The position numbers and the translations under genes were made by a program. From positions 1-4,189 of the IMG/VR virus record IMGVR_UViG_2663762627_000001: a stretch of 4,189 bases of DNA; one strand, given 5' to 3'. Source of the DNA: a virus. Its lineage: Duplodnaviria > Heunggongvirae > Uroviricota > Caudoviricetes. Numbering within the stretch: position 1 is the first letter of the stretch; each line of letters opens with the position of its first letter. This document shows positions 1 through 4,189 of the stretch, in pieces. The notes beneath the pieces were generated by a model, which saw only the letters and a program-made list of their open reading frames with translations, ran no database searches and had not been told where the DNA came from.

Positions 1-231
1 GCCTTTGAGGTCGTGGTATGGATGACGGATGGCTGGCCGCTGTATGAATCCCGCCTGAAGGGAAAGCTGCACGTAATCAGCAAGCGTTACACTCAGCGCA
101 TTGAGCGACATAACCTGAATCTGAGACAACATCTGGCAAGGCTGGGACGGAAGTCACTGTCGTTCTCAAAATCGGTGGAGCTGCATGACAAAGTCATCGG
201 GCATTATCTGAACATAAAACACTATCAGTAA
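1..231 (+). CDS. insB: IS1 transposase InsB, C-terminal portion (5'-partial; stop TAA at 229-231)
   Basis: In-frame translation from position 1; the ORF track entry 13..231 begins at an internal GTG. Protein-level recognition of the InsB C-terminus. Confidence 0.9.
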
Positions 232-246
232 GTTGGAGTCATTACC
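224..246. repeat. IS1 terminal inverted repeat (outer end at about 246)
   Basis: The 23 bp atcagtaagttggagtcattacc is the reverse complement of the IS1 terminal repeat GGTAATGACTCCAACTTATTGAT as recalled, with one mismatch. Confidence 0.75.
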
Positions 247-433
247 AGCCATATGTTTTGCGCATGACAGCCAGGAAGACCAGAAGCTGGTGCTGTGTTA
301 ATCCGGCCAGCATTACAGCTTCCAGCAACTCATTTGCAATGCGCGTATAACCATCATCGAGATCTGCCACGCGCGGCTCCTTTTGTGCCATATCCGGCAC
401 TGGAAAATTGAATATCTCAGCAGTGTTTGCCAT
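242..433 (-). pseudogene. Replication initiator O-like gene, N-terminal fragment only, interrupted by IS1
   Basis: The minus-strand product MANTAEIFNFPVPDMAQKEPRVADLDDGYTRIANELLEAVMLAGLTQHQLLVFLAVMRKTYGW aligns with the N-terminus of lambda O (…VADLDDGYARLSNMLLEA…LLAILRKTYGW, from memory). The frame stops at a TAA (242-244) lying inside the IS1 terminal repeat, directly after the W codon (245-247). Start assigned to the ATG at 433-431, which sits 4 nt after a GGGAGG ribosome-binding site; the ORF track's longer form starts at 523. Confidence 0.8.
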
Positions 434-519
434 AATTCCTCCCGCAATGAGTGCGTTACGATTTGCACCTGAAAGTCGGTTCTGTTCCCGCAGACCGGCT
501 TTCGCCATTTCTGAACCTG

Positions 520-1059
520 TCATATTGCCCCCAGCATGGTGGTAACCATCGCCATCAATGGACCAGCCAGATCAGGATCCACACGAAACATCGACACAAT
601 GCCTTCACTCATCTCCTTCAGTTTCTGGTGGCGTGGTGCGTTGAGAATGACCGCCTGTTTTGCCTCGCTGAGCTCCTTTTCCATTTCAACCAGTCGAGCC
701 ATGAAGCTATCCTGCTCAACCAGGTGGCCGCGATATTTCAGCGGTAGTACTGCCAGAATTGCTGGAGTCAGTTCACGCACGTTATTTCGGTATTTTTCAG
801 AATCGAATTTGTTATCGAGAAAGCGGAACAGCTTCTGGCGTGCACGACTGACATCATCAGGAAAATCGATAGTGCCGCCGCCCTGTGCTCGATACTCATT
901 CACAATGAGTGCGGCAACGACATCCTGATTATCTACAGCCGACCAGGCGCGGACGGCATCACGGATTTTTTCGTGGCCTGGCACCTGTTTTATTTGAGAA
1001 CGATTTATCACCGCAGTCGGGATAAATCCGCTAGTCTGTTGGTATGTAATTGGTTGCAT
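520..1059 (-). CDS. CII-position regulatory protein, probably YdaT-family (179 aa from the ATG at 1059; the ORF track's 190-aa form starts at 1092)
   Basis: Long minus-strand ORF directly downstream of cro and upstream of the O-like gene. The ATG at 1059-1057 has an AAGGA ribosome-binding site 9 nt upstream; the ATG at 1092 has none. Motifs EYRAQGGG and LTPAILAVLP are reminiscent of YdaT-family proteins (family assignment from memory, not verified). Its stop overlaps the upstream in-frame ATG of the O frame in an ATGA arrangement (520-523). Confidence 0.6.
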   Translation of the reverse strand: MQPITYQQTSGFIPTAVINRSQIKQVPGHEKIRDAVRAWSAVDNQDVVAALIVNEYRAQGGGTIDFPDDVSRARQKLFRFLDNKFDSEKYRNNVRELTPAILAVLPLKYRGHLVEQDSFMARLVEMEKELSEAKQAVILNAPRHQKLKEMSEGIVSMFRVDPDLAGPLMAMVTTMLGAI

Positions 1060-1082
1060 AATTGATTCCTTTAGTCTGAATT

Positions 1083-1128
1083 GACTGTTCATCAGTCTGT
1101 TAAGTTGATTGCTTATTGTTAAAGAACG
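1083..1128 (-). promoter_or_regulatory. Candidate nutR-like site: boxA-like element plus a small hairpin, between cro and the CII-position gene
   Basis: Minus strand 1128->1115 reads CGTTCTTTAACAAT, one mismatch from the rrn/lambdoid boxA core (T/C)GCTCTTTAACAA as I recall it. 17 nt further downstream, GACTG-ATGAA-CAGTC (1097->1083) forms a 5-bp stem with a 5-nt loop, the same geometry as boxB. Position matches lambda nutR. Confidence 0.35.
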
Positions 1129-1140
1129 TGAAAAGGAAAT

Positions 1141-1371
1141 TTAAGCTGCATTCTTTTCGGTATGTGGAAACAACTTCGGAAGATCCGGGCGAATCTGGTA
1201 TGCCTTAACTACCCCGCCAGTAGCCGTAACAATGCTGCCGACATGTTCAGGGGATACCTTTGCTTTGTTGTGTAGCCACTTATAGACGGCCTGCTGTGAA
1301 ACTTCGCAGGCATCGCCCAGTTTCTTTTGTGAACCGACGATATTGATCGCGGTTTTGATTGCTGGGTTCAT
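1141..1371 (-). CDS. cro: Cro-like HTH repressor (76 aa)
   Basis: Minus-strand ORF divergent from the repressor gene, with a GGAGG ribosome-binding site 5 nt upstream of the ATG (1371-1369). The product MNPAIKTAINIVGSQKKLGDACEVSQQAVYKWLHNKAKV…VKAYQIRPDLPKLFPHTEK has the same pattern as lambda Cro (…[20 protein letters not shown]…VYAEEVKPFPSNKK). Confidence 0.85.
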   Translation of the reverse strand: MNPAIKTAINIVGSQKKLGDACEVSQQAVYKWLHNKAKVSPEHVGSIVTATGGVVKAYQIRPDLPKLFPHTEKNAA

Positions 1372-1398
1372 AACAACCTCCGTGGTTAACTTGAATTA

Positions 1399-1470
1399 AG
1401 ATTAAAACCATGGTTGTTTTTAGTCAACAACCATTTTCGTTTGATGAAATAAAACCTTGGTTGTACATTT
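1399..1470. promoter_or_regulatory. OR-like divergent control region with three operator candidates and PR-like/PRM-like promoters
   Basis: Two perfect 10-bp palindromes, AACCATGGTT (1406-1415) and AACCTTGGTT (1453-1462), flank a half-site-only copy AACCATTTTC (1429-1438); centre spacing is 23 and 24 bp. Minus-strand TTGACT (1427-1422) followed by an AT-rich -10 candidate TAATCT (1404-1399) would drive cro. Plus-strand TTGATG (1441-1446), a 17-bp spacer and TACATT (1464-1469) would place a transcription start at about the cI ATG, giving a leaderless message as at lambda PRM. Confidence 0.5.
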
Positions 1471-1475
1471 GGTCT

Positions 1476-2165
1476 ATGAAAACAACACTCTCAGAAAGAC
1501 TTAAAGAAGCCAGATTAGCGCGAGGCCTTACACAAAAGGCGCTTGGGGATATGGTCGGGGTTAGCCAGGCTGCCATTCAGAAAATCGAAACAGGGAAAGC
1601 TAACCAAACAACTAAAATCGTGGAGATCGCAAACGCTTTAGGTGTGCGCGCAGAATGGTTATCTTCTGGCGTTGGAAATATGTCAGACAGTACCGTGCAA
1701 CCAATACAATCAACTGTCAGCCATTCAAAATACTTCAAGATTGACGTTCTTGATATAGAAGTCAGTGCCGGACCGGGTGTCATCAACCGTGAGTTTGTGG
1801 AAGTTCTACGCTCGGTTGAGTACTCGTTTGACGATGCTCGTCACATGTTCGATGGCAGGAAGGCGGAAAATATCCGCATCATTAACGTGCGCGGTGACAG
1901 CATGTCAGGGACGATCGAACCAGGTGACCTGCTGTTCGTTGATATCACTGTTAAATCTTTCGACGGTGATGGCATCTATGCGTTTCTGTACGACGACACT
2001 GCCCATGTAAAACGTCTTCAAATGATGAAGGATAAGCTGCTGGTTATCTCTGATAACAAGAGCTACTCGCCGTGGGACCCGATCGAGAAAGACGAGATGA
2101 ACCGGGTGTTCATATTCGGTAAGGTCATTGGAAGCATGCCGCAGACGTACAGGAAGCATGGTTAA
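1476..2165 (+). CDS. cI: CI-like prophage repressor (N-terminal HTH, C-terminal S24/LexA-type autoprotease domain), 229 aa
   Basis: The HTH segment LSERLKEARLARGLTQKALGDMVGVSQAAIQKIETGK begins right after the ATG at 1476. The C-terminal half carries a candidate Ala-Gly cleavage site (VSAGPG), the catalytic serine motif GDSM and the lysine motif HVKRL. The ORF track's upstream start at 1410 would run through the operators, so 1476 is preferred. Stop TAA at 2163-2165. Confidence 0.9.
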   Translation: MKTTLSERLKEARLARGLTQKALGDMVGVSQAAIQKIETGKANQTTKIVEIANALGVRAEWLSSGVGNMSDSTVQPIQSTVSHSKYFKIDVLDIEVSAGPGVINREFVEVLRSVEYSFDDARHMFDGRKAENIRIINVRGDSMSGTIEPGDLLFVDITVKSFDGDGIYAFLYDDTAHVKRLQMMKDKLLVISDNKSYSPWDPIEKDEMNRVFIFGKVIGSMPQTYRKHG

Positions 2166-2340
2166 TTTATCTACGACTTAAGGGAGCGAAGGTTAAGGTT
2201 TATACCACTCGGATTAGATATTGCACTAAATTCTCTATAAGAACGCCAAATCTGTTTGCATATTTCAGTAAATATTCTCGTTGTTAGCTGAAATTTGTTG
2301 CTACTGTCAGCAAAATGTCCCCCTATCTCGTAGCGGTTTT

Positions 2341-2386
2341 TATTTCGAATCATTATGTTAAGATGTTTCTGATTATAATGAATGGA
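2341..2386 (+). promoter_or_regulatory. Candidate promoter for the lipoprotein gene
   Basis: Perfect TATAAT at 2374-2379 with TG at 2370-2371, 16 bp upstream of the ATG at 2395, in an AT-rich intergenic tract. No good -35 hexamer; the leader would be very short. Confidence 0.3.
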
Positions 2387-2394
2387 AACATAAA

Positions 2395-2775
2395 ATGAGA
2401 AAAATCCTAATCGCTGCCATGATGGCATCTCTATTGGCTGGGTGTGCTTCTTCAGGCAACCAGCAACTCAAAAATGAAACTGAAATTAGTGTCCAGTCTA
2501 AACTTCAGGAAGGTAAAACAACCAAGAATGAGGTTAAATCTTACTTTGGTTCTCCTGATGCTGTTTCATATACTGACAGTGGAAACGAGATCTGGAAGTA
2601 CGCCTTTGCAAAAGTAAAAGTTAATGGCACCACTTTTATTCCATTCTATGGATTATTCCATAATGGAACGAACGGTACGAAAAAAGAACTTACTATTCTT
2701 TTTAACGATGACACGATTAAGAAATACACAATGTCAGAAACCCAAATAAACTCGAAATCAGGTTGGGCTGACTGA
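2395..2775 (+). CDS. Outer-membrane lipoprotein of unknown function (126 aa), in the rexAB-equivalent slot; fold possibly BamE/SmpA-OmlA-like
   Basis: Signal peptide MRKILIAAMMASLLAG followed by lipobox LAGC; the residue after the Cys is Ala, consistent with outer-membrane sorting. Mature region has a pattern resembling BamE: GKTTKNEV…FGSPD…EIWKY…ELTILFNDD versus BamE GMTQQQV…LGTP…NTWFY…TLTLTFNSS. Codon usage is clearly more AT-rich than flanking genes, and the gene has its own terminator. Confidence 0.85.
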   Translation: MRKILIAAMMASLLAGCASSGNQQLKNETEISVQSKLQEGKTTKNEVKSYFGSPDAVSYTDSGNEIWKYAFAKVKVNGTTFIPFYGLFHNGTNGTKKELTILFNDDTIKKYTMSETQINSKSGWAD

Positions 2776-2783
2776 TAATCATA

Positions 2784-2810
2784 CCCGGCAACCGCGCCGG
2801 GTTTTCTTTT
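2784..2810 (+). terminator. Rho-independent terminator after the lipoprotein gene
   Basis: Stem CCCGGC (2784-2789) / GCCGGG (2796-2801) with loop AACCGC, followed by TTTTCTTTT (2802-2810). Confidence 0.8.
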
Positions 2811-2904
2811 CCTCCCCCTCATAACTCATACCGTCCAAAAAACCACCACACCTCACTTCAGTTATCGCTATGCGATGCAAGTCACAAAATAAATCCATCC
2901 TAAA

Positions 2905-2985
2905 TACAACCAGTTATATTTAAAACAACCGACAAAACAACTTTTGTTGTTGACGATAAAACAACTATAGTTTTAAATAAATTCA
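2905..2985 (+). promoter_or_regulatory. pL/OL-like region: candidate promoter and repeated operator-like motifs
   Basis: TTGACG (2950-2955), a 17-bp spacer, then TTAAAT (2973-2978). The ACAACC-type motif seen in OR recurs here: TACAACCA (2905-2912), AAAACAACC (2922-2930), the inverted repeat AACAAC-TTTT-GTTGTT (2936-2951) overlapping the -35, and AAAACAAC (2958-2965). Confidence 0.4.
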
Positions 2986-3034
2986 TCGCAACGACACAAC
3001 GATACGGTAACCACCTGTTTCACCGTTGCGATGA
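2983..3034. repeat. Perfect 11-bp inverted repeat with a 30-bp spacer in the pL leader
   Basis: TCATCGCAACG (2983-2993) and its exact reverse complement CGTTGCGATGA (3024-3034), immediately downstream of the candidate pL -10. Confidence 0.7.
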
Positions 3035-3255
3035 CCGCTTAGATCCGCAGTTTGAATTTCAGCAGGCTTCGGGGAGTGCGAGGGGTGAAACGGACGCGTG
3101 AACGTCGGTGTGACCAGCTGAAATCAACACAACACTTTATACCTCAGTCGCTTCAACGAGGCGGCTTAGTTATGACAACCGGCGGCCATCCACCGCCTGA
3201 ATACGCGCAGAAGTCTCTATATGTTCAGCAGCCCAGCTTACGGGCAGGAGTTTTT

Positions 3256-3462
3256 ATGGTTCATCAACATTACGGAACGCAGACCGTTAATCGCGGCGCG
3301 GTCATGCCAGGAATGCTGGTCAAACACAAAGATGGTACCTGGACTGCATCAGCTAATTTACGCGGGCGGCTTTATCTGCATCGCGGCATCGAGCGCACTT
3401 ATACCCGTGATTTGCTCGTAGAAGTTTTTCTCGACGGACGCGGTAACGGCCTGAATCACTAA
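3256..3462 (+). CDS. Hypothetical small protein (68 aa) in the N/kil position upstream of gam; may be the C-terminal part of a longer ORF
   Basis: ATG at 3256 has an AGGAG ribosome-binding site 5 nt upstream; stop TAA at 3460-3462. The same open frame extends upstream to a TTG at 3052, with a GTG at 3085 (GGGGAG 8 nt upstream) and an ATG at 3172 (GAGG upstream). Product MVHQHYGTQTVNRGAVMPGMLVKHKDGTWTASANLRGRLYLHRGIERTYTRDLLVEVFLDGRGNGLNH has no family I can recognise. Confidence 0.45.
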   Translation: MVHQHYGTQTVNRGAVMPGMLVKHKDGTWTASANLRGRLYLHRGIERTYTRDLLVEVFLDGRGNGLNH

Positions 3463-3538
3463 CCCCCCTTTCCTGTTTTCCTAATCAGCCTGGCATTTCG
3501 CGGGCGATATTTTCACAGCCATTTTCAGGAGTTCAGCC

Positions 3539-3835
3539 ATGAACGCTTATTACATTCAGGATCGTCTTGAGGCTCAGAGCTGGGCGCGTCACTACCAGCA
3601 GATCGCCCGTGAAGAGAAAGAGGCAGAACTGGCAGACGACATGGAAAAAGGCCTGCCCCAGCATTTGTTTGAATCGCTCTGCATCGATCATTTACAACGC
3701 TGCGGGGCCAGCAAAAAAGCCATTACCCGTGCATTTGATGACGATGTTGAGTTTCAGGAGCGCATGGCAGAACACATCCGGTACATGGTTGAAACCATTG
3801 CTCACCATCAGGTTGATATTGATTCAGAGGTATAA
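3539..3835 (+). CDS. gam: Gam, host RecBCD nuclease inhibitor (98-aa GamS form)
   Basis: Product [98 protein letters not shown] is near-identical to lambda Gam as recalled. AGGAG ribosome-binding site 8 nt upstream; stop TAA at 3833-3835. Confidence 0.95.
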
Positions 3836-3840
3836 AACGG

Positions 3841-4189
3841 ATGAGTACAGCACTCGCAACGCTGGCTGGGAAGCTGGCTGAACGTGTCGGCATGGATTCT
3901 GTCGACCCACAGGAACTGATCACCACTCTTCGCCAGACGGCATTTAAAGGTGATGCCAGCGATGCGCAGTTCATCGCATTGTTGATCGTCGCCAACCAGT
4001 ACGGCCTTAATCCGTGGACGAAAGAAATTTACGCCTTCCCTGACAAGCAGAACGGCATCGTTCCGGTGGTGGGCGTTGATGGCTGGTCCCGCATCATCAA
4101 TGAAAACCAGCAGTTTGATGGCATGGACTTTGAGCAGGACAATGAATCCTGCACATGCCGGATTTACCGCAAGGACCGTAATCATCCGA
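3841..4189 (+). CDS. bet: Bet (Red-beta) single-strand annealing recombinase, N-terminal 116 codons (3'-partial at window end)
   Basis: Product MSTALATLAGKLAERVGMDSVDPQELITTLRQTAFKGDASDAQFIALLIVANQYGLNPWTKEIYAFPDKQNGIVPVVGVDGWSRIINENQQFDGMDFEQDNESCTCRIYRKDRNHP matches lambda Bet as recalled; GAGG 10 nt upstream of the ATG. Confidence 0.95.
   Translation, partial: MSTALATLAGKLAERVGMDSVDPQELITTLRQTAFKGDASDAQFIALLIVANQYGLNPWTKEIYAFPDKQNGIVPVVGVDGWSRIINENQQFDGMDFEQDNESCTCRIYRKDRNHP

What the first reader, a model, noticed from the sequence alone, without database searches (positions are those of the whole stretch)
520..1371. Cro plus an oversized CII-position protein resembling the YdaS/YdaT pair
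The gene after cro encodes 179 aa, much larger than lambda cII (97 aa), with motifs reminiscent of YdaT. YdaT-type proteins have been described both as toxins and as functional CII equivalents in cryptic prophages. Its stop overlaps an in-frame upstream ATG of the O frame (ATGA at 520-523), although the lambda-aligned O start with a strong ribosome-binding site is at 433.
Basis: partly seen in the sequence, partly recalled or inferred. Interest (0 to 1): 0.45.

Follow-up and report, generated by a model that had tools for sequence, protein, structure and literature searches.

The report
Phi80-type CII (YdaT family) with Cro
This is the ordinary lysis/lysogeny control pair of a lambda-like E. 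coli prophage: a Cro-type repressor and a phi80-type "CII" activator of the YdaT family. It is already catalogued, but its first codons appear to double as the promoter it controls.

Summary
A 76-aa Cro (1371-1141, minus strand) and a 179-aa protein (1059-520) lie between a cI-like repressor and an IS1-truncated O gene. Both pass Pfam's curated cut-offs: YdaS_toxin 61.5 bits, YdaT_toxin 98.7 bits.

The 179-aa protein is a full-length homologue of phage phi80 CII (64% identity) and matches PHROG 163 "CII-like transcriptional activator". Its predicted fold matches the solved YdaT structures 3C4R and 8BT1. The size is normal for this subfamily. The pair reads as Cro/CII analogues, not toxin-antitoxin. 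The finding is therefore already known.

Two results go beyond the finding.
1. Across 66 diverse homologues, codons 8-22 carry invariant bases regardless of the amino acid. These give a YdaT-box core (TGA-N10-TCA; window 994-1011) and, 20 bp away on the other strand, a TAnnnT hexamer (1032-1037). The same spacing occurs at the footprinted Rac box and four other subfamilies. This suggests a PRE-like promoter with the activator site centred at -41.5.
2. The 86-nt gap between cII and O holds an antisense RNA like phi80 M3 (lambda oop), with a covarying terminator. Relatives lack the upstream O extension, so O starts at 433, not 523.

The parts
1141..1371 (-). cro-like gene, 76 aa, YdaS family HTH
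   Evidence: ORF. Pfam YdaS_toxin 61.5 bits against cut-off 30; P22_Cro 23 bits, below its cut-off of 30.2. PHROG 35 'transcriptional repressor' E=1.3e-27. 63% identical to HK639 Cro and 30% to K-12 YdaS.
1060..1140 (-). 81-nt cro-cII spacer carrying the cII ribosome-binding site (AAGGA); its TTGATT repeats are not conserved
   Evidence: Sequence. The commonest close relatives lack 12 nt of this spacer and read AGTCAA instead of AATCAA. The same cII allele also sits behind an unrelated cro and junction.
520..1059 (-). phi80-type cII gene, 179 aa, YdaT family
   Evidence: Pfam YdaT_toxin E=2.8e-28. PHROG 163 'CII-like transcriptional activator' E=1.2e-64. 64% identical over full length to phi80 CII and 34% over 108 aa to Rac YdaT. 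AlphaFold2 model with mean pLDDT 80. Foldseek top hits 3c4r_A (target-normalised TM 0.71) and 8bt1_C (0.67), probability 1.00. Family profile against PDB: 8bt1 E=5e-9.
994..1011 (.). candidate CII/YdaT operator inside cII codons 17-22: sense strand GTGATAAATCGTTCTCAA, core TGA-N10-TCA
   Evidence: Third-codon bases of codons 17 and 21 are invariant (2.0 bits against a gene mean of 0.62) although the amino acids vary. Ile18 uses the rare codon ATA. The position matches the footprinted Rac box relative to the HTH domain (PMC11879457). This is inferred, not shown.
1032..1037 (+). candidate -10 hexamer TAGTCT of a PRE-like promoter reading towards cro (antisense) and cI; predicted start near 1044
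   Evidence: TAnnnT is present at this aligned position in 66 of 66 homologues although codons 9 and 10 vary in amino acid. In 11 of 11 loci from six subfamilies it is the only TAnnnT within 8-33 nt of the box, at 20 or 21 nt; background is 0.0095 per position. Inferred.
444..510 (+). antisense small RNA like phi80 M3 (lambda oop homologue) in the cII-O gap; terminator hairpin at 471-503
   Evidence: The gap aligns with the phi80 region annotated as M3 RNA. Nine of 14 hairpin pairs show compensatory changes in 24 sequences. The ends are estimated from the phi80 annotation.
408..436 (+). promoter-like site for the M3-like RNA: TTGAAT, 17 nt, CATAAT with an upstream TG; the -10 overlaps the O start codon
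   Evidence: Promoter scan. CAT(A/T)(A/C)T over the start codon of the downstream gene is conserved across loci.
247..433 (-). 5' part of the replication gene O (62 codons), cut by IS1; true start is ATG 433
   Evidence: Pfam Phage_rep_O. The match to intact prophages begins at 247. Start-codon conservation.
1..246 (+). 3' end of IS1 (end of insB and the terminal inverted repeat)
   Evidence: Pfam DDE_Tnp_IS1 E=3.4e-38. The sequence ends in GGTAATGACTCCAACTTACTG, read as reverse complement.
1372..1475 (.). OR-type control region with repeated operators (TAAAACC(A/T)TGGTTGT twice; ATGGTTGTT/AACAACCAT) between cro and cI
   Evidence: Repeat search. Promoter assignments are by eye only.
1476..2165 (+). 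cI-like repressor, HTH plus S24 autopeptidase, 229 aa
   Evidence: Pfam HTH_3 and Peptidase_S24. PHROG 4 and PHROG 6201 'CI-like repressor'.

Best explanation
Positions 520-1371 are the rightward early regulatory pair of a lambdoid prophage, read on the minus strand.

The first gene encodes a Cro-type HTH repressor of the YdaS family. The second encodes the phi80-type CII, a YdaT-family DNA-binding protein. Its predicted parts are:
- a disordered N-terminus (residues 1-27);
- a POU-like HTH domain (29-113, recognition helix 70-82);
- a long helix (119-138) that forms a four-helix-bundle tetramer in the solved relatives;
- two further conserved C-terminal helices (143-178).

By homology it acts as the establishment activator. 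It is made from PR after infection or derepression, and it switches on a leftward promoter that transcribes antisense through cro into the repressor gene.

I infer that this promoter lies inside the 5' end of cII itself. The operator core TGA-N10-TCA is at codons 17-22 (window 994-1011). The -10 hexamer TAGTCT is 20 bp further on, on the plus strand (1032-1037), and the start is near 1044. That places the activator at -41.5, over a missing -35, much as lambda CII sits at PRE.

Downstream of cII, a small antisense RNA like M3/oop (about 444-510, plus strand) fills the gap before O, which starts at 433.

Shown here: family membership, predicted fold, gene order, conservation patterns. Inferred: DNA binding, activation, tetramer formation, and the promoter and operator assignment.

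The confidence of 0.8 is for identity and CII-like role. For the specific promoter and operator assignment I put about 0.55.
For: Family and fold
- Pfam YdaT_toxin 98.7 bits and YdaS_toxin 61.5 bits.
- PHROG 163 'CII-like transcriptional activator' E=1.2e-64.
- 64% identity to phi80 CII over the full length. Forty-nine phage records hold relatives, mostly annotated cII.
- AlphaFold2 model matches 3C4R and 8BT1, 'YdaT transcription regulator (CII functional analog)'. The family profile hits 8bt1 at E=5e-9.
- The recognition helix is invariant in 75 family members: R72, R74, Q75, K76, L77, F78, R79, L81, D82. It aligns with CP-933P ARNTQKIFRWLD.

Context
- Gene order is cI-like repressor, cro, cII, O, P in the intact relative.

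Published function of relatives
- CP-933P YdaT activates PRE933P and binds TTGATT-N6-AATCAA (PMC8630535, PMC9986795).
- Rac YdaT binds ATGATTCATGAAAATCAA at its own start codon and raises leftward racR expression 29-fold (PMC11879457).
- CP-933P YdaT is stated to be homologous to phi80 CII (PMC8630535).

Embedded promoter
- Of 179 third-codon positions in 66 genes (43 clusters at 90% nucleotide identity), only five are invariant. Two are trivial (the start codon and a Trp codon). The other three are codons 9, 17 and 21, which carry 6, 3 and 7 different amino acids. Ile18 uses the rare codon ATA.
- An antisense TAnnnT is present in 66 of 66.
- The box-to-hexamer spacing is 20-21 bp in 11 of 11 loci. 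These include Rac, a CP-933P-like phage, two Klebsiella types and an Aeromonas phage. No other TAnnnT lies within 8-33 nt of the box.
- The same cII allele recombines behind unrelated cro genes and junctions, so its control site must travel within the gene.
Against: - Nothing here is experimental. DNA binding, activation and oligomeric state are inferred for this protein.
- The window's box is degenerate: 4 mismatches to TTGATT-N6-AATCAA. No site with 2 or fewer mismatches lies near cII, and the only such site in the window (3819-3836) lies at the 3' end of gam.
- The published Rac work assigns the YdaT-dependent activity to PracR4, about 190 bp from the box. The CP-933P paper places its box downstream of PRE933P. 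Neither describes a box-proximal promoter, so my geometry disagrees with both assignments.
- The 66 homologues are related, so invariant bases are not fully independent events.
- Invariant TG at codon 17 could also reflect its use as an alternative start codon; the PHROG 163 profile begins at residue 17.
- No second composite site was found near int in the intact relative or in phi80.
- The prophage is defective because IS1 interrupts O, so the module may no longer serve a phage life cycle.
Confidence: 0.8

Rival explanations
1. The pair is a toxin-antitoxin module, as the Pfam names YdaS_toxin and YdaT_toxin imply. One protein poisons the cell and the other, or the neighbouring repressor, neutralises it.
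For: Pfam family names. Derepression or overexpression of Rac ydaS/ydaT is lethal and causes filamentation (PMC5700377, PMC5700373, PMC11879457).
Against: - Both proteins are HTH DNA-binding folds.
- The genes occupy the cro and cII positions of an immunity region.
- The phi80 homologue is annotated as the cII gene.
- CP-933P YdaT showed no toxicity, and the authors conclude the pair is not a TA system (PMC8630535).
- Jobling notes that lambda CII is also toxic when overproduced (PMC5917428).
- Rac YdaT toxicity is explained by mis-regulation of rcsA (PMC11879457).
Confidence: 0.04
2. The protein is a sequence homologue of lambda CII and works through TTGC-N6-TTGC direct repeats.
For: Same gene position. 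PMC11879457 argues that the recognition helices of YdaT and lambda CII are locally similar (R-W motif).
Against: - No Pfam match other than YdaT_toxin, even at E up to 10.
- No lambda CII chain among PDB hits at E up to 10 with the family profile, and none in the 50 Foldseek matches listed.
- No TTGC-N6-TTGC within one mismatch anywhere near cro or cII; 3 matches in the window against 5.75 expected.
Confidence: 0.02
3. The protein is a YdaT-family DNA binder, but in this IS1-disrupted prophage it mainly acts as a repressor, roadblock or host-gene regulator rather than as an establishment activator. The invariant bases in codons 8-22 serve another purpose, such as an internal start at codon 17, translational pausing at ATA, or a site for another protein.
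For: - Rac YdaT also binds the ydaS promoter region and the host rcsA promoter (PMC11879457).
- A perfect TTGATT-N6-AATCAA overlaps the -35 and spacer of a nin-region promoter in the intact relatives and in phage 82, which is a repressor-type position.
- Codon 17 is always NTG.
- The prophage cannot replicate.
Against: - Codons 1-8 show a coding pattern, with conserved first and second positions and free third positions. Translation therefore starts at codon 1.
- An internal start does not explain the invariant T of codons 9 and 21, or the exclusive use of AGY serine codons at codon 10.
- The fixed 20-21 bp distance to a TAnnnT hexamer recurs in subfamilies where the box is not coding. This fits a promoter better than a roadblock.
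Confidence: 0.12

Closest known systems
Phage phi80 CII (gene cII, YP_007947970.1, 180 aa) with gene 30 (Cro analogue) and M3 RNA
   Same: - 64% identity over the whole length, and the same size.
- Same gene order: cro analogue, cII, 85-86-nt gap with an antisense small RNA, then an O-like gene.
- Same invariant recognition helix.
- Same embedded box and -10 pattern.
   Different: - The window's Cro is HK639-like (63%) and unrelated to phi80 gene 30.
- The cro-cII junction differs: an 81-nt spacer here, against 30 nt with a GC hairpin in phi80.
- phi80 has an N gene. The window has none between PL and kil.
YdaT of cryptic prophage CP-933P (PDB 8BT1) and its close relative 3C4R
   Same: Same Pfam family. 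The predicted fold superposes on the whole solved chain, covering the POU-like HTH domain and the long helix (target-normalised TM 0.67-0.71). The recognition helices are similar. It lies between a Cro analogue and O and activates a PRE-type promoter (PMC8630535, PMC9986795).
   Different: - Only about 28% identity.
- The window protein has about 24 extra N-terminal residues and about 40 extra C-terminal residues forming two conserved helices.
- The CP-933P-type box is a perfect palindrome lying at the ydaT start codon in the 93%-identical Tritos locus and at the end of ydaS in CP-933P itself (PMC9986795). Here only the core survives, and it lies inside the coding region.
YdaS/YdaT of the Rac prophage, E. 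coli K-12
   Same: 34% (YdaT) and 30% (YdaS) identity. Same order, divergent from the repressor. Rac has a footprinted box with a TAnnnT hexamer (TATGAT) exactly 20 bp from it on the antisense strand, as in the window.
   Different: - Rac YdaT is 140 aa.
- The Rac repressor RacR lacks the S24 peptidase domain that the window's repressor has.
- The published activated promoter, PracR4, is placed 190 bp from the box (PMC11879457).
Lambda Cro, CII and oop RNA
   Same: Same positions and presumed logic. The activator site lies within the start of the activator's own gene and over the -35 of a leftward promoter. An antisense small RNA lies between cII and O.
   Different: - No detectable sequence or family relationship of CII.
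- The operator is an inverted-repeat core, not TTGC direct repeats.
- No cIII gene was seen in the window.

Membership tests
YdaT family (Pfam PF06254; PHROG 163 'CII-like transcriptional activator') | Profile match above the curated threshold | tested here: met
   PF06254 98.7 bits against cut-off 21, E=2.8e-28. PHROG 163 E=1.2e-64, covering profile positions 1-168 of 168.
YdaT family | POU-like five-helix HTH domain followed by a long helix (alpha-6) | tested here: met
   AlphaFold2 model, mean pLDDT 80, helices 29-43, 45-58, 70-82, 88-104, 107-113 and 119-138. Foldseek hits 3c4r_A (target-normalised TM 0.71) and 8bt1_C (0.67), probability 1.00. This is a predicted structure, not a solved one.
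YdaT family | Recognition-helix residues needed for DNA binding (Rac H56, R57, W58; PMC11879457) | tested here: inconclusive
   The Arg is kept and invariant (R79). The Trp is replaced by Phe (F80). The His has no clear counterpart.
YdaT family | Tetramer through an antiparallel four-helix bundle | not testable with these tools
   Only a monomer was modelled. The long helix is present.
YdaT family | TTGATT-N6-AATCAA operator at or near the start of the gene | tested here: inconclusive
   No site with 2 or fewer mismatches lies near cII. The symmetric core TGA-N10-TCA at codons 17-22 is conserved in nearly all of 66 homologues, independent of the amino acids; the HK639-type alleles read TCG in the right arm. 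Binding was not tested.
CII-position regulator of a lambdoid immunity region | Second gene of the PR operon, between cro and the replication genes, divergent from the repressor | tested here: met
   Order is cI-like (1476-2165, plus), cro (1371-1141, minus), this gene (1059-520, minus), O (433 onward, minus), with P following in the intact relative.
Lambda CII family (Pfam Phage_CII) | Sequence or profile similarity to lambda CII | tested here: not met
   Only YdaT_toxin is reported at E up to 10. No lambda CII chain in the PDB profile search at E up to 10.
Lambda CII family | TTGC-N6-TTGC direct repeats at the establishment promoter | tested here: not met
   No match within one mismatch between 240 and 2299. 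There are 3 matches in the window against 5.75 expected.
YdaS family / Cro analogues (Pfam PF15943) | Profile match above threshold; first gene of the PR operon | tested here: met
   61.5 bits against cut-off 30. P22_Cro scores 23 bits, below its cut-off of 30.2, so this is not a P22 Cro family member.
Type II toxin-antitoxin pair | A toxin with a cellular target, neutralised by direct binding of its partner | not testable with these tools
   No toxin fold was found; both proteins are HTH folds. Published tests on CP-933P and Rac argue against a TA system (PMC8630535, PMC5917428).
phi80 M3 / lambda oop-type antisense RNA | Promoter overlapping the O start, about 60-nt antisense RNA in the cII-O gap, ending in an intrinsic terminator | tested here: met
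   Promoter-like site at 408-436. The gap aligns with the phi80 M3 region. Nine of 14 hairpin pairs covary. No Rfam family matched, and the transcript was not observed.

The most novel reading that the evidence does not exclude
The roughly 27-codon, structurally disordered N-terminal extension that makes phi80-type CII 'oversized' may be coding sequence laid over the gene's own establishment promoter.

Across the YdaT family, the operator would sit exactly 20-21 bp from an antisense -10 hexamer, placing it at -41.5 or -42.5. These proteins would then be class-II-type activators of a box-proximal promoter. If so, the YdaT-dependent leftward transcription reported for Rac (assigned to PracR4, 190 bp away) and for CP-933P may in fact start next to the box.
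Probability: 0.5. Interest if true: 0.4.

Novelty: already known. Interest (0 to 1): 0.25.

Why it matters
For the finding as stated, the value is mainly correct annotation.
- The gene is a phi80-type CII and should not be labelled a toxin.
- Pipelines that start O at the ATGA overlap add 30 codons that cover a small antisense RNA.

The wider point, if confirmed, is a simple shared promoter architecture for the whole YdaT/CII-analogue family: box, 20-21 bp, then the -10 hexamer. That would give a direct, cheap test of how these common prophage regulators establish repression. It would also explain why their genes can recombine behind unrelated cro genes and still work.

Tried and rejected
1. 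Canonical YdaT box. A search for TTGATT-N6-AATCAA with up to 3 mismatches gave 10 weak hits, none convincing near cII.
2. Junction repeats. I followed the TTGATT repeats at 1062, 1105 and 1355 and the direct repeat AATCAA-TTATGC-AACCAA over the cII ATG. They are absent from phi80, HK639, mEp237, the Klebsiella phage and PHB10. They are also altered in the closest relatives, so I dropped them as operators.
3. Inverted repeat. The 8-bp repeat at 1002-1009/1021-1028 is at chance level and not conserved.
4. Lambda-type TTGC repeats: none.
5. Rfam scan at E up to 1: nothing, so neither the M3-like RNA nor the put-like region has a curated family.
6. Second site. A search for a second composite site (box, 20-21 nt, TAnnnT) near int or elsewhere in phi80 and in the intact relative found only the one inside cII. 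Chance expectation is 0.4 per phi80 genome.
7. NCBIfam has no model for the 179-aa protein.
8. Literature. I found no paper on a phi80 establishment promoter in the held library.
9. The RNA fold of the PL-proximal region alone is not significant (z = -0.3).
Full report
**What is in the window**

The 4189 bases are the immunity region of a lambdoid E. coli prophage.
- Positions 247-4189 are 100% identical to a prophage of strain WP8-S17-ESBL-05, integrated next to ybhC, the lambda attachment region.
- Positions 1-246 are the end of an IS1 (Pfam DDE_Tnp_IS1). It cuts the replication gene O after 62 codons.

From left to right:

| Feature | Coordinates | Strand |
|---|---|---|
| O', truncated | 433-247 | minus |
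| 179-aa gene | 1059-520 | minus |
| 76-aa cro-like gene | 1371-1141 | minus |
| Operator region | 1372-1475 | both |
| cI-like HTH+S24 repressor | 1476-2165 | plus |
| BamE-like lipoprotein gene | 2395-2775 | plus |
| Second operator/promoter region | about 2900-2990 | plus |
| kil | 3256-3462 | plus |
| gam | 3539-3835 | plus |
| Start of bet | 3841 onward | plus |

**The observation**

- The second gene is 179 aa, starting at ATG 1059, with AAGGA 8 nt upstream.
- Its TGA (522-520) overlaps an ATG (523-521) that is in frame with O.
- A second ATG at 433 follows GGGAGGAATT and opens the part of O that matches Phage_rep_O.

**Identity of the two proteins**

- The 76-aa protein scores 61.5 bits on YdaS_toxin (cut-off 30).
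- The 179-aa protein scores 98.7 bits on YdaT_toxin (cut-off 21, E=2.8e-28). No other Pfam family appears for it, even at E up to 10.
- PHROGs places it in family 163, 'CII-like transcriptional activator' (E=1.2e-64), and the Cro in family 35, 'transcriptional repressor'.

A translated search of 50,697 phage records found 49 with a relative.
- 94-98% identity: a group of E. coli lambda-like phages (PhiR30_1, 4A7, Lambda_4C10, Perceval and others).
- 66% identity: mEp237.
- 64% identity: phi80, where the gene is annotated cII.
- 51% identity: HK225 and HK639.
- 33-36% identity: Rac-type and other YdaT proteins.

Pairwise comparisons:
- 64% identity over all 179 residues to phi80 CII;
- 34% over 108 residues to K-12 Rac YdaT;
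- the Cro is 63% identical to HK639 Cro and 30% to K-12 YdaS.

In the large protein collection, 665 clusters match. Nearly all listed ones are 178-180 aa and carry PF06254. The protein is therefore 'oversized' only against lambda CII. It is a normal member of the phi80-type subfamily. RefSeq already names it 'toxin YdaT domain-containing protein'.

**Fold**

An AlphaFold2 model built on 75 family members has mean pLDDT 80.
- Residues 1-27 are not confidently folded.
- Helices follow at 29-43, 45-58, 70-82, 88-104, 107-113, 119-138, 143-160 and 162-178.

Foldseek against the PDB returns only two convincing targets (probability 1.00):
- 3C4R, a cryptic-prophage protein, with target-normalised TM 0.71;
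- 8BT1, 'YdaT transcription regulator (CII functional analog)', with TM 0.67.

By sequence, the family profile hits 8BT1 at E=5e-9 and 3C4R at E=8e-8, and no lambda CII chain.

The helix aligned with the YdaT recognition helix is invariant in all 75 sequences: R72, R74, Q75, K76, L77, F78, R79, L81, D82. It resembles CP-933P ARNTQKIFRWLD.

Compared with the solved YdaT proteins, the window protein has about 24 extra N-terminal residues. It also has two extra conserved C-terminal helices.

**What is known about relatives**

- Jobling argued from gene context that Rac YdaS/YdaT are Cro/CII analogues and not toxins (PMC5917428).
- For CP-933P, YdaT activates a promoter between ydaS and ydaT, is not toxic, and is stated to be homologous to phi80 CII (PMC8630535).
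- The CP-933P structure is a POU-like HTH domain plus a long helix forming a tetramer. It binds TTGATT-N6-AATCAA (PMC9986795).
- Rac YdaT binds ATGATTCATGAAAATCAA across its own start codon and raises leftward racR expression 29-fold. The authors assign this to a promoter 190 bp away (PMC11879457).

That phi80 cII was defined genetically rests on my own knowledge of the older phi80 literature. Here I rely only on the record's annotation.

**Looking for the operator**

The canonical box is not present near cII. I first followed TTGATT repeats in the cro-cII junction and a direct repeat over the cII ATG. They are absent in other family members and altered in the closest relatives.

The 80 closest viral loci were informative in another way. 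The same cII allele (94% identity or more) sits behind at least two unrelated cro genes and junctions. Any cognate control site should therefore lie within the gene.

I collected 66 distinct genes at 39-98% protein identity (43 clusters at 90% nucleotide identity). They came from eight phages and 58 species-representative genomes. I aligned them by codon.

Third-codon positions average 0.62 bits of conservation. Only five of 179 are invariant:
- the start codon and a Trp codon, which are trivial;
- codon 9, always T, with six different amino acids;
- codon 17, always G, with Met, Leu or Val;
- codon 21, always T, with seven different amino acids.

Two further signs point the same way. Ile18 is almost always the rare ATA codon (1.73 bits). 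Codon 10 always starts with A, so every serine there uses an AGY codon.

Read as DNA, the invariant bases are:
- TGATA at nucleotides 50-54 and TCA at 63-65. This is the symmetric core of the YdaT box (T-TGA-TT-N6-AA-TCA-A).
- A at nucleotide 23 and TA at 27-28. This is TAnnnT on the opposite strand, present in 66 of 66 genes.

There are no indels between the two elements. The box (nucleotides 49-66) and the hexamer (23-28) are 20 bp apart. With a start 7 nt beyond the hexamer, the box centre falls at -41.5.

In window coordinates:
- box at 994-1011 (plus strand TTGAGAACGATTTATCAC);
- hexamer TAGTCT at 1032-1037;
- predicted plus-strand start near 1044, reading antisense through cro into cI.

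**An independent check of the geometry**

I looked at other YdaT subfamilies, where the box is at or before the start codon and the flanks are not alignable.

| Locus | Spacing box to hexamer | Hexamer |
|---|---|---|
| Rac | 20 | TATGAT |
| Klebsiella ST405 phage | 20 | TAGCAT |
| Aeromonas phage pAEv1818 | 20 | TAACAT |
| CP-933P-like phage Tritos (perfect box) | 21 | TAGTTT |
| Klebsiella Kp4882 | 21 | TATCAT |

In all 11 loci examined, this is the only TAnnnT between 8 and 33 nt from the box. The background frequency is 0.0095 per position.

In phi80 (46 kb) and in the 20-kb relative, the composite pattern occurs only once, inside cII.

I take this as good evidence for a shared promoter architecture. 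It remains an inference, and it differs from the promoter assignments published for Rac and CP-933P.

**The gap before O**

The 86 nt between the cII stop and ATG 433 align with the 85-nt phi80 gap annotated 'M3 RNA, homolog of lambda oop RNA'.
- On the plus strand there is a promoter-like site: TTGAAT, 17 nt, then CATAAT with an upstream TG (408-436). Its -10 overlaps the O start codon.
- A hairpin at 471-503 is followed by a T-rich run. In 24 diverse sequences, 9 of its 14 pairs show compensatory changes.
- The element accompanies the 3' end of cII in most loci, whatever replication gene follows.
- The in-frame extension upstream of the O ATG has no ATG and is closed by stops in phi80, HK225, mEp237 and PHB10.

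The O start is therefore 433. The ATG at 523, which RefSeq uses in the intact relative, is most likely an annotation artefact.

**Verdict**

It is the Cro plus phi80-type CII (YdaT family) pair of a lambdoid prophage that IS1 has made defective.

The toxin-antitoxin reading is unlikely. The lambda-CII-homologue reading fails its tests.

The part worth a follow-up experiment is the inferred promoter and operator embedded in the first 22 codons, and its conserved spacing across the family.

Noticed in passing
window 2985-3135 (+): There is no N-like gene between the presumed PL (TTGACG about 2950-2955, TTAAAT about 2973-2978) and kil. This leader shares blocks (TGCGAGGGG, GGTGTG) with the region annotated 'putL-like antiterminator RNA' in phage HK639, whose Cro and CII are also related. 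It may be a put-type RNA antiterminator. The fold z-score alone is not significant, and Rfam has no match.
   Followed up: partly
L001 1372-1389; L002 342-359; phi80 (L091) 38718-38735; phage 82 (L169): A perfect TTGATT-N6-AATCAA (TTGATA-N6-TATCAA in phi80) lies upstream of orf33/ybcN in the nin region. It forms the -35 and spacer of a TTGAT(T/A), 17 nt, CATAAT promoter that the phage 82 record annotates as putative. This is a repressor-type position for a YdaT-type protein and could limit expression towards Q. It lies outside the window, and its co-occurrence with this cII type is confounded by relatedness.
   Followed up: partly
window 1441-1476 (+): By eye, TTGATG (1441-1446), 17 nt, then TACATT (1464-1469) would start transcription at the A of the cI ATG (1476). 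That would give a leaderless repressor mRNA, as at lambda PRM.
   Followed up: no
window 1-246 and 247-433: IS1 is inserted in O after codon 62, so this prophage copy cannot replicate. No complete E. coli RefSeq genome matched the whole window in one piece, and the only full-coverage match (H1) has IS1 elsewhere. Many carry the uninterrupted region.
   Followed up: partly
window 2395-2802 (+): A BamE-like or SEN1984-family lipoprotein gene (PHROG 3135) with its own intrinsic terminator (2783-2802) sits downstream of cI. This is the position of rexAB in lambda, so it is probably a lysogen-expressed moron.
   Followed up: no
window 520-650 (protein residues 141-179): The two C-terminal helices, which are absent from the solved YdaT proteins, are among the most conserved parts of the phi80-type subfamily (A141, P142, H144, Q145, K146, K148, E149, S151, E152, I154 and others invariant). 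Their role is unknown; oligomerisation, RNA polymerase contact or a protease signal are possibilities.
   Followed up: no
L004, L005, L007, L008, about 40 to 25 nt upstream of the cII ATG (locus positions about 2462-2477); L012-type loci: Many relatives, but not the window, have a conserved GC hairpin (GCCGCC-TAAC-GGCGGC) between cro and cII. It is kept across unrelated cro genes and may be a terminator or a nut-like element.
   Followed up: no
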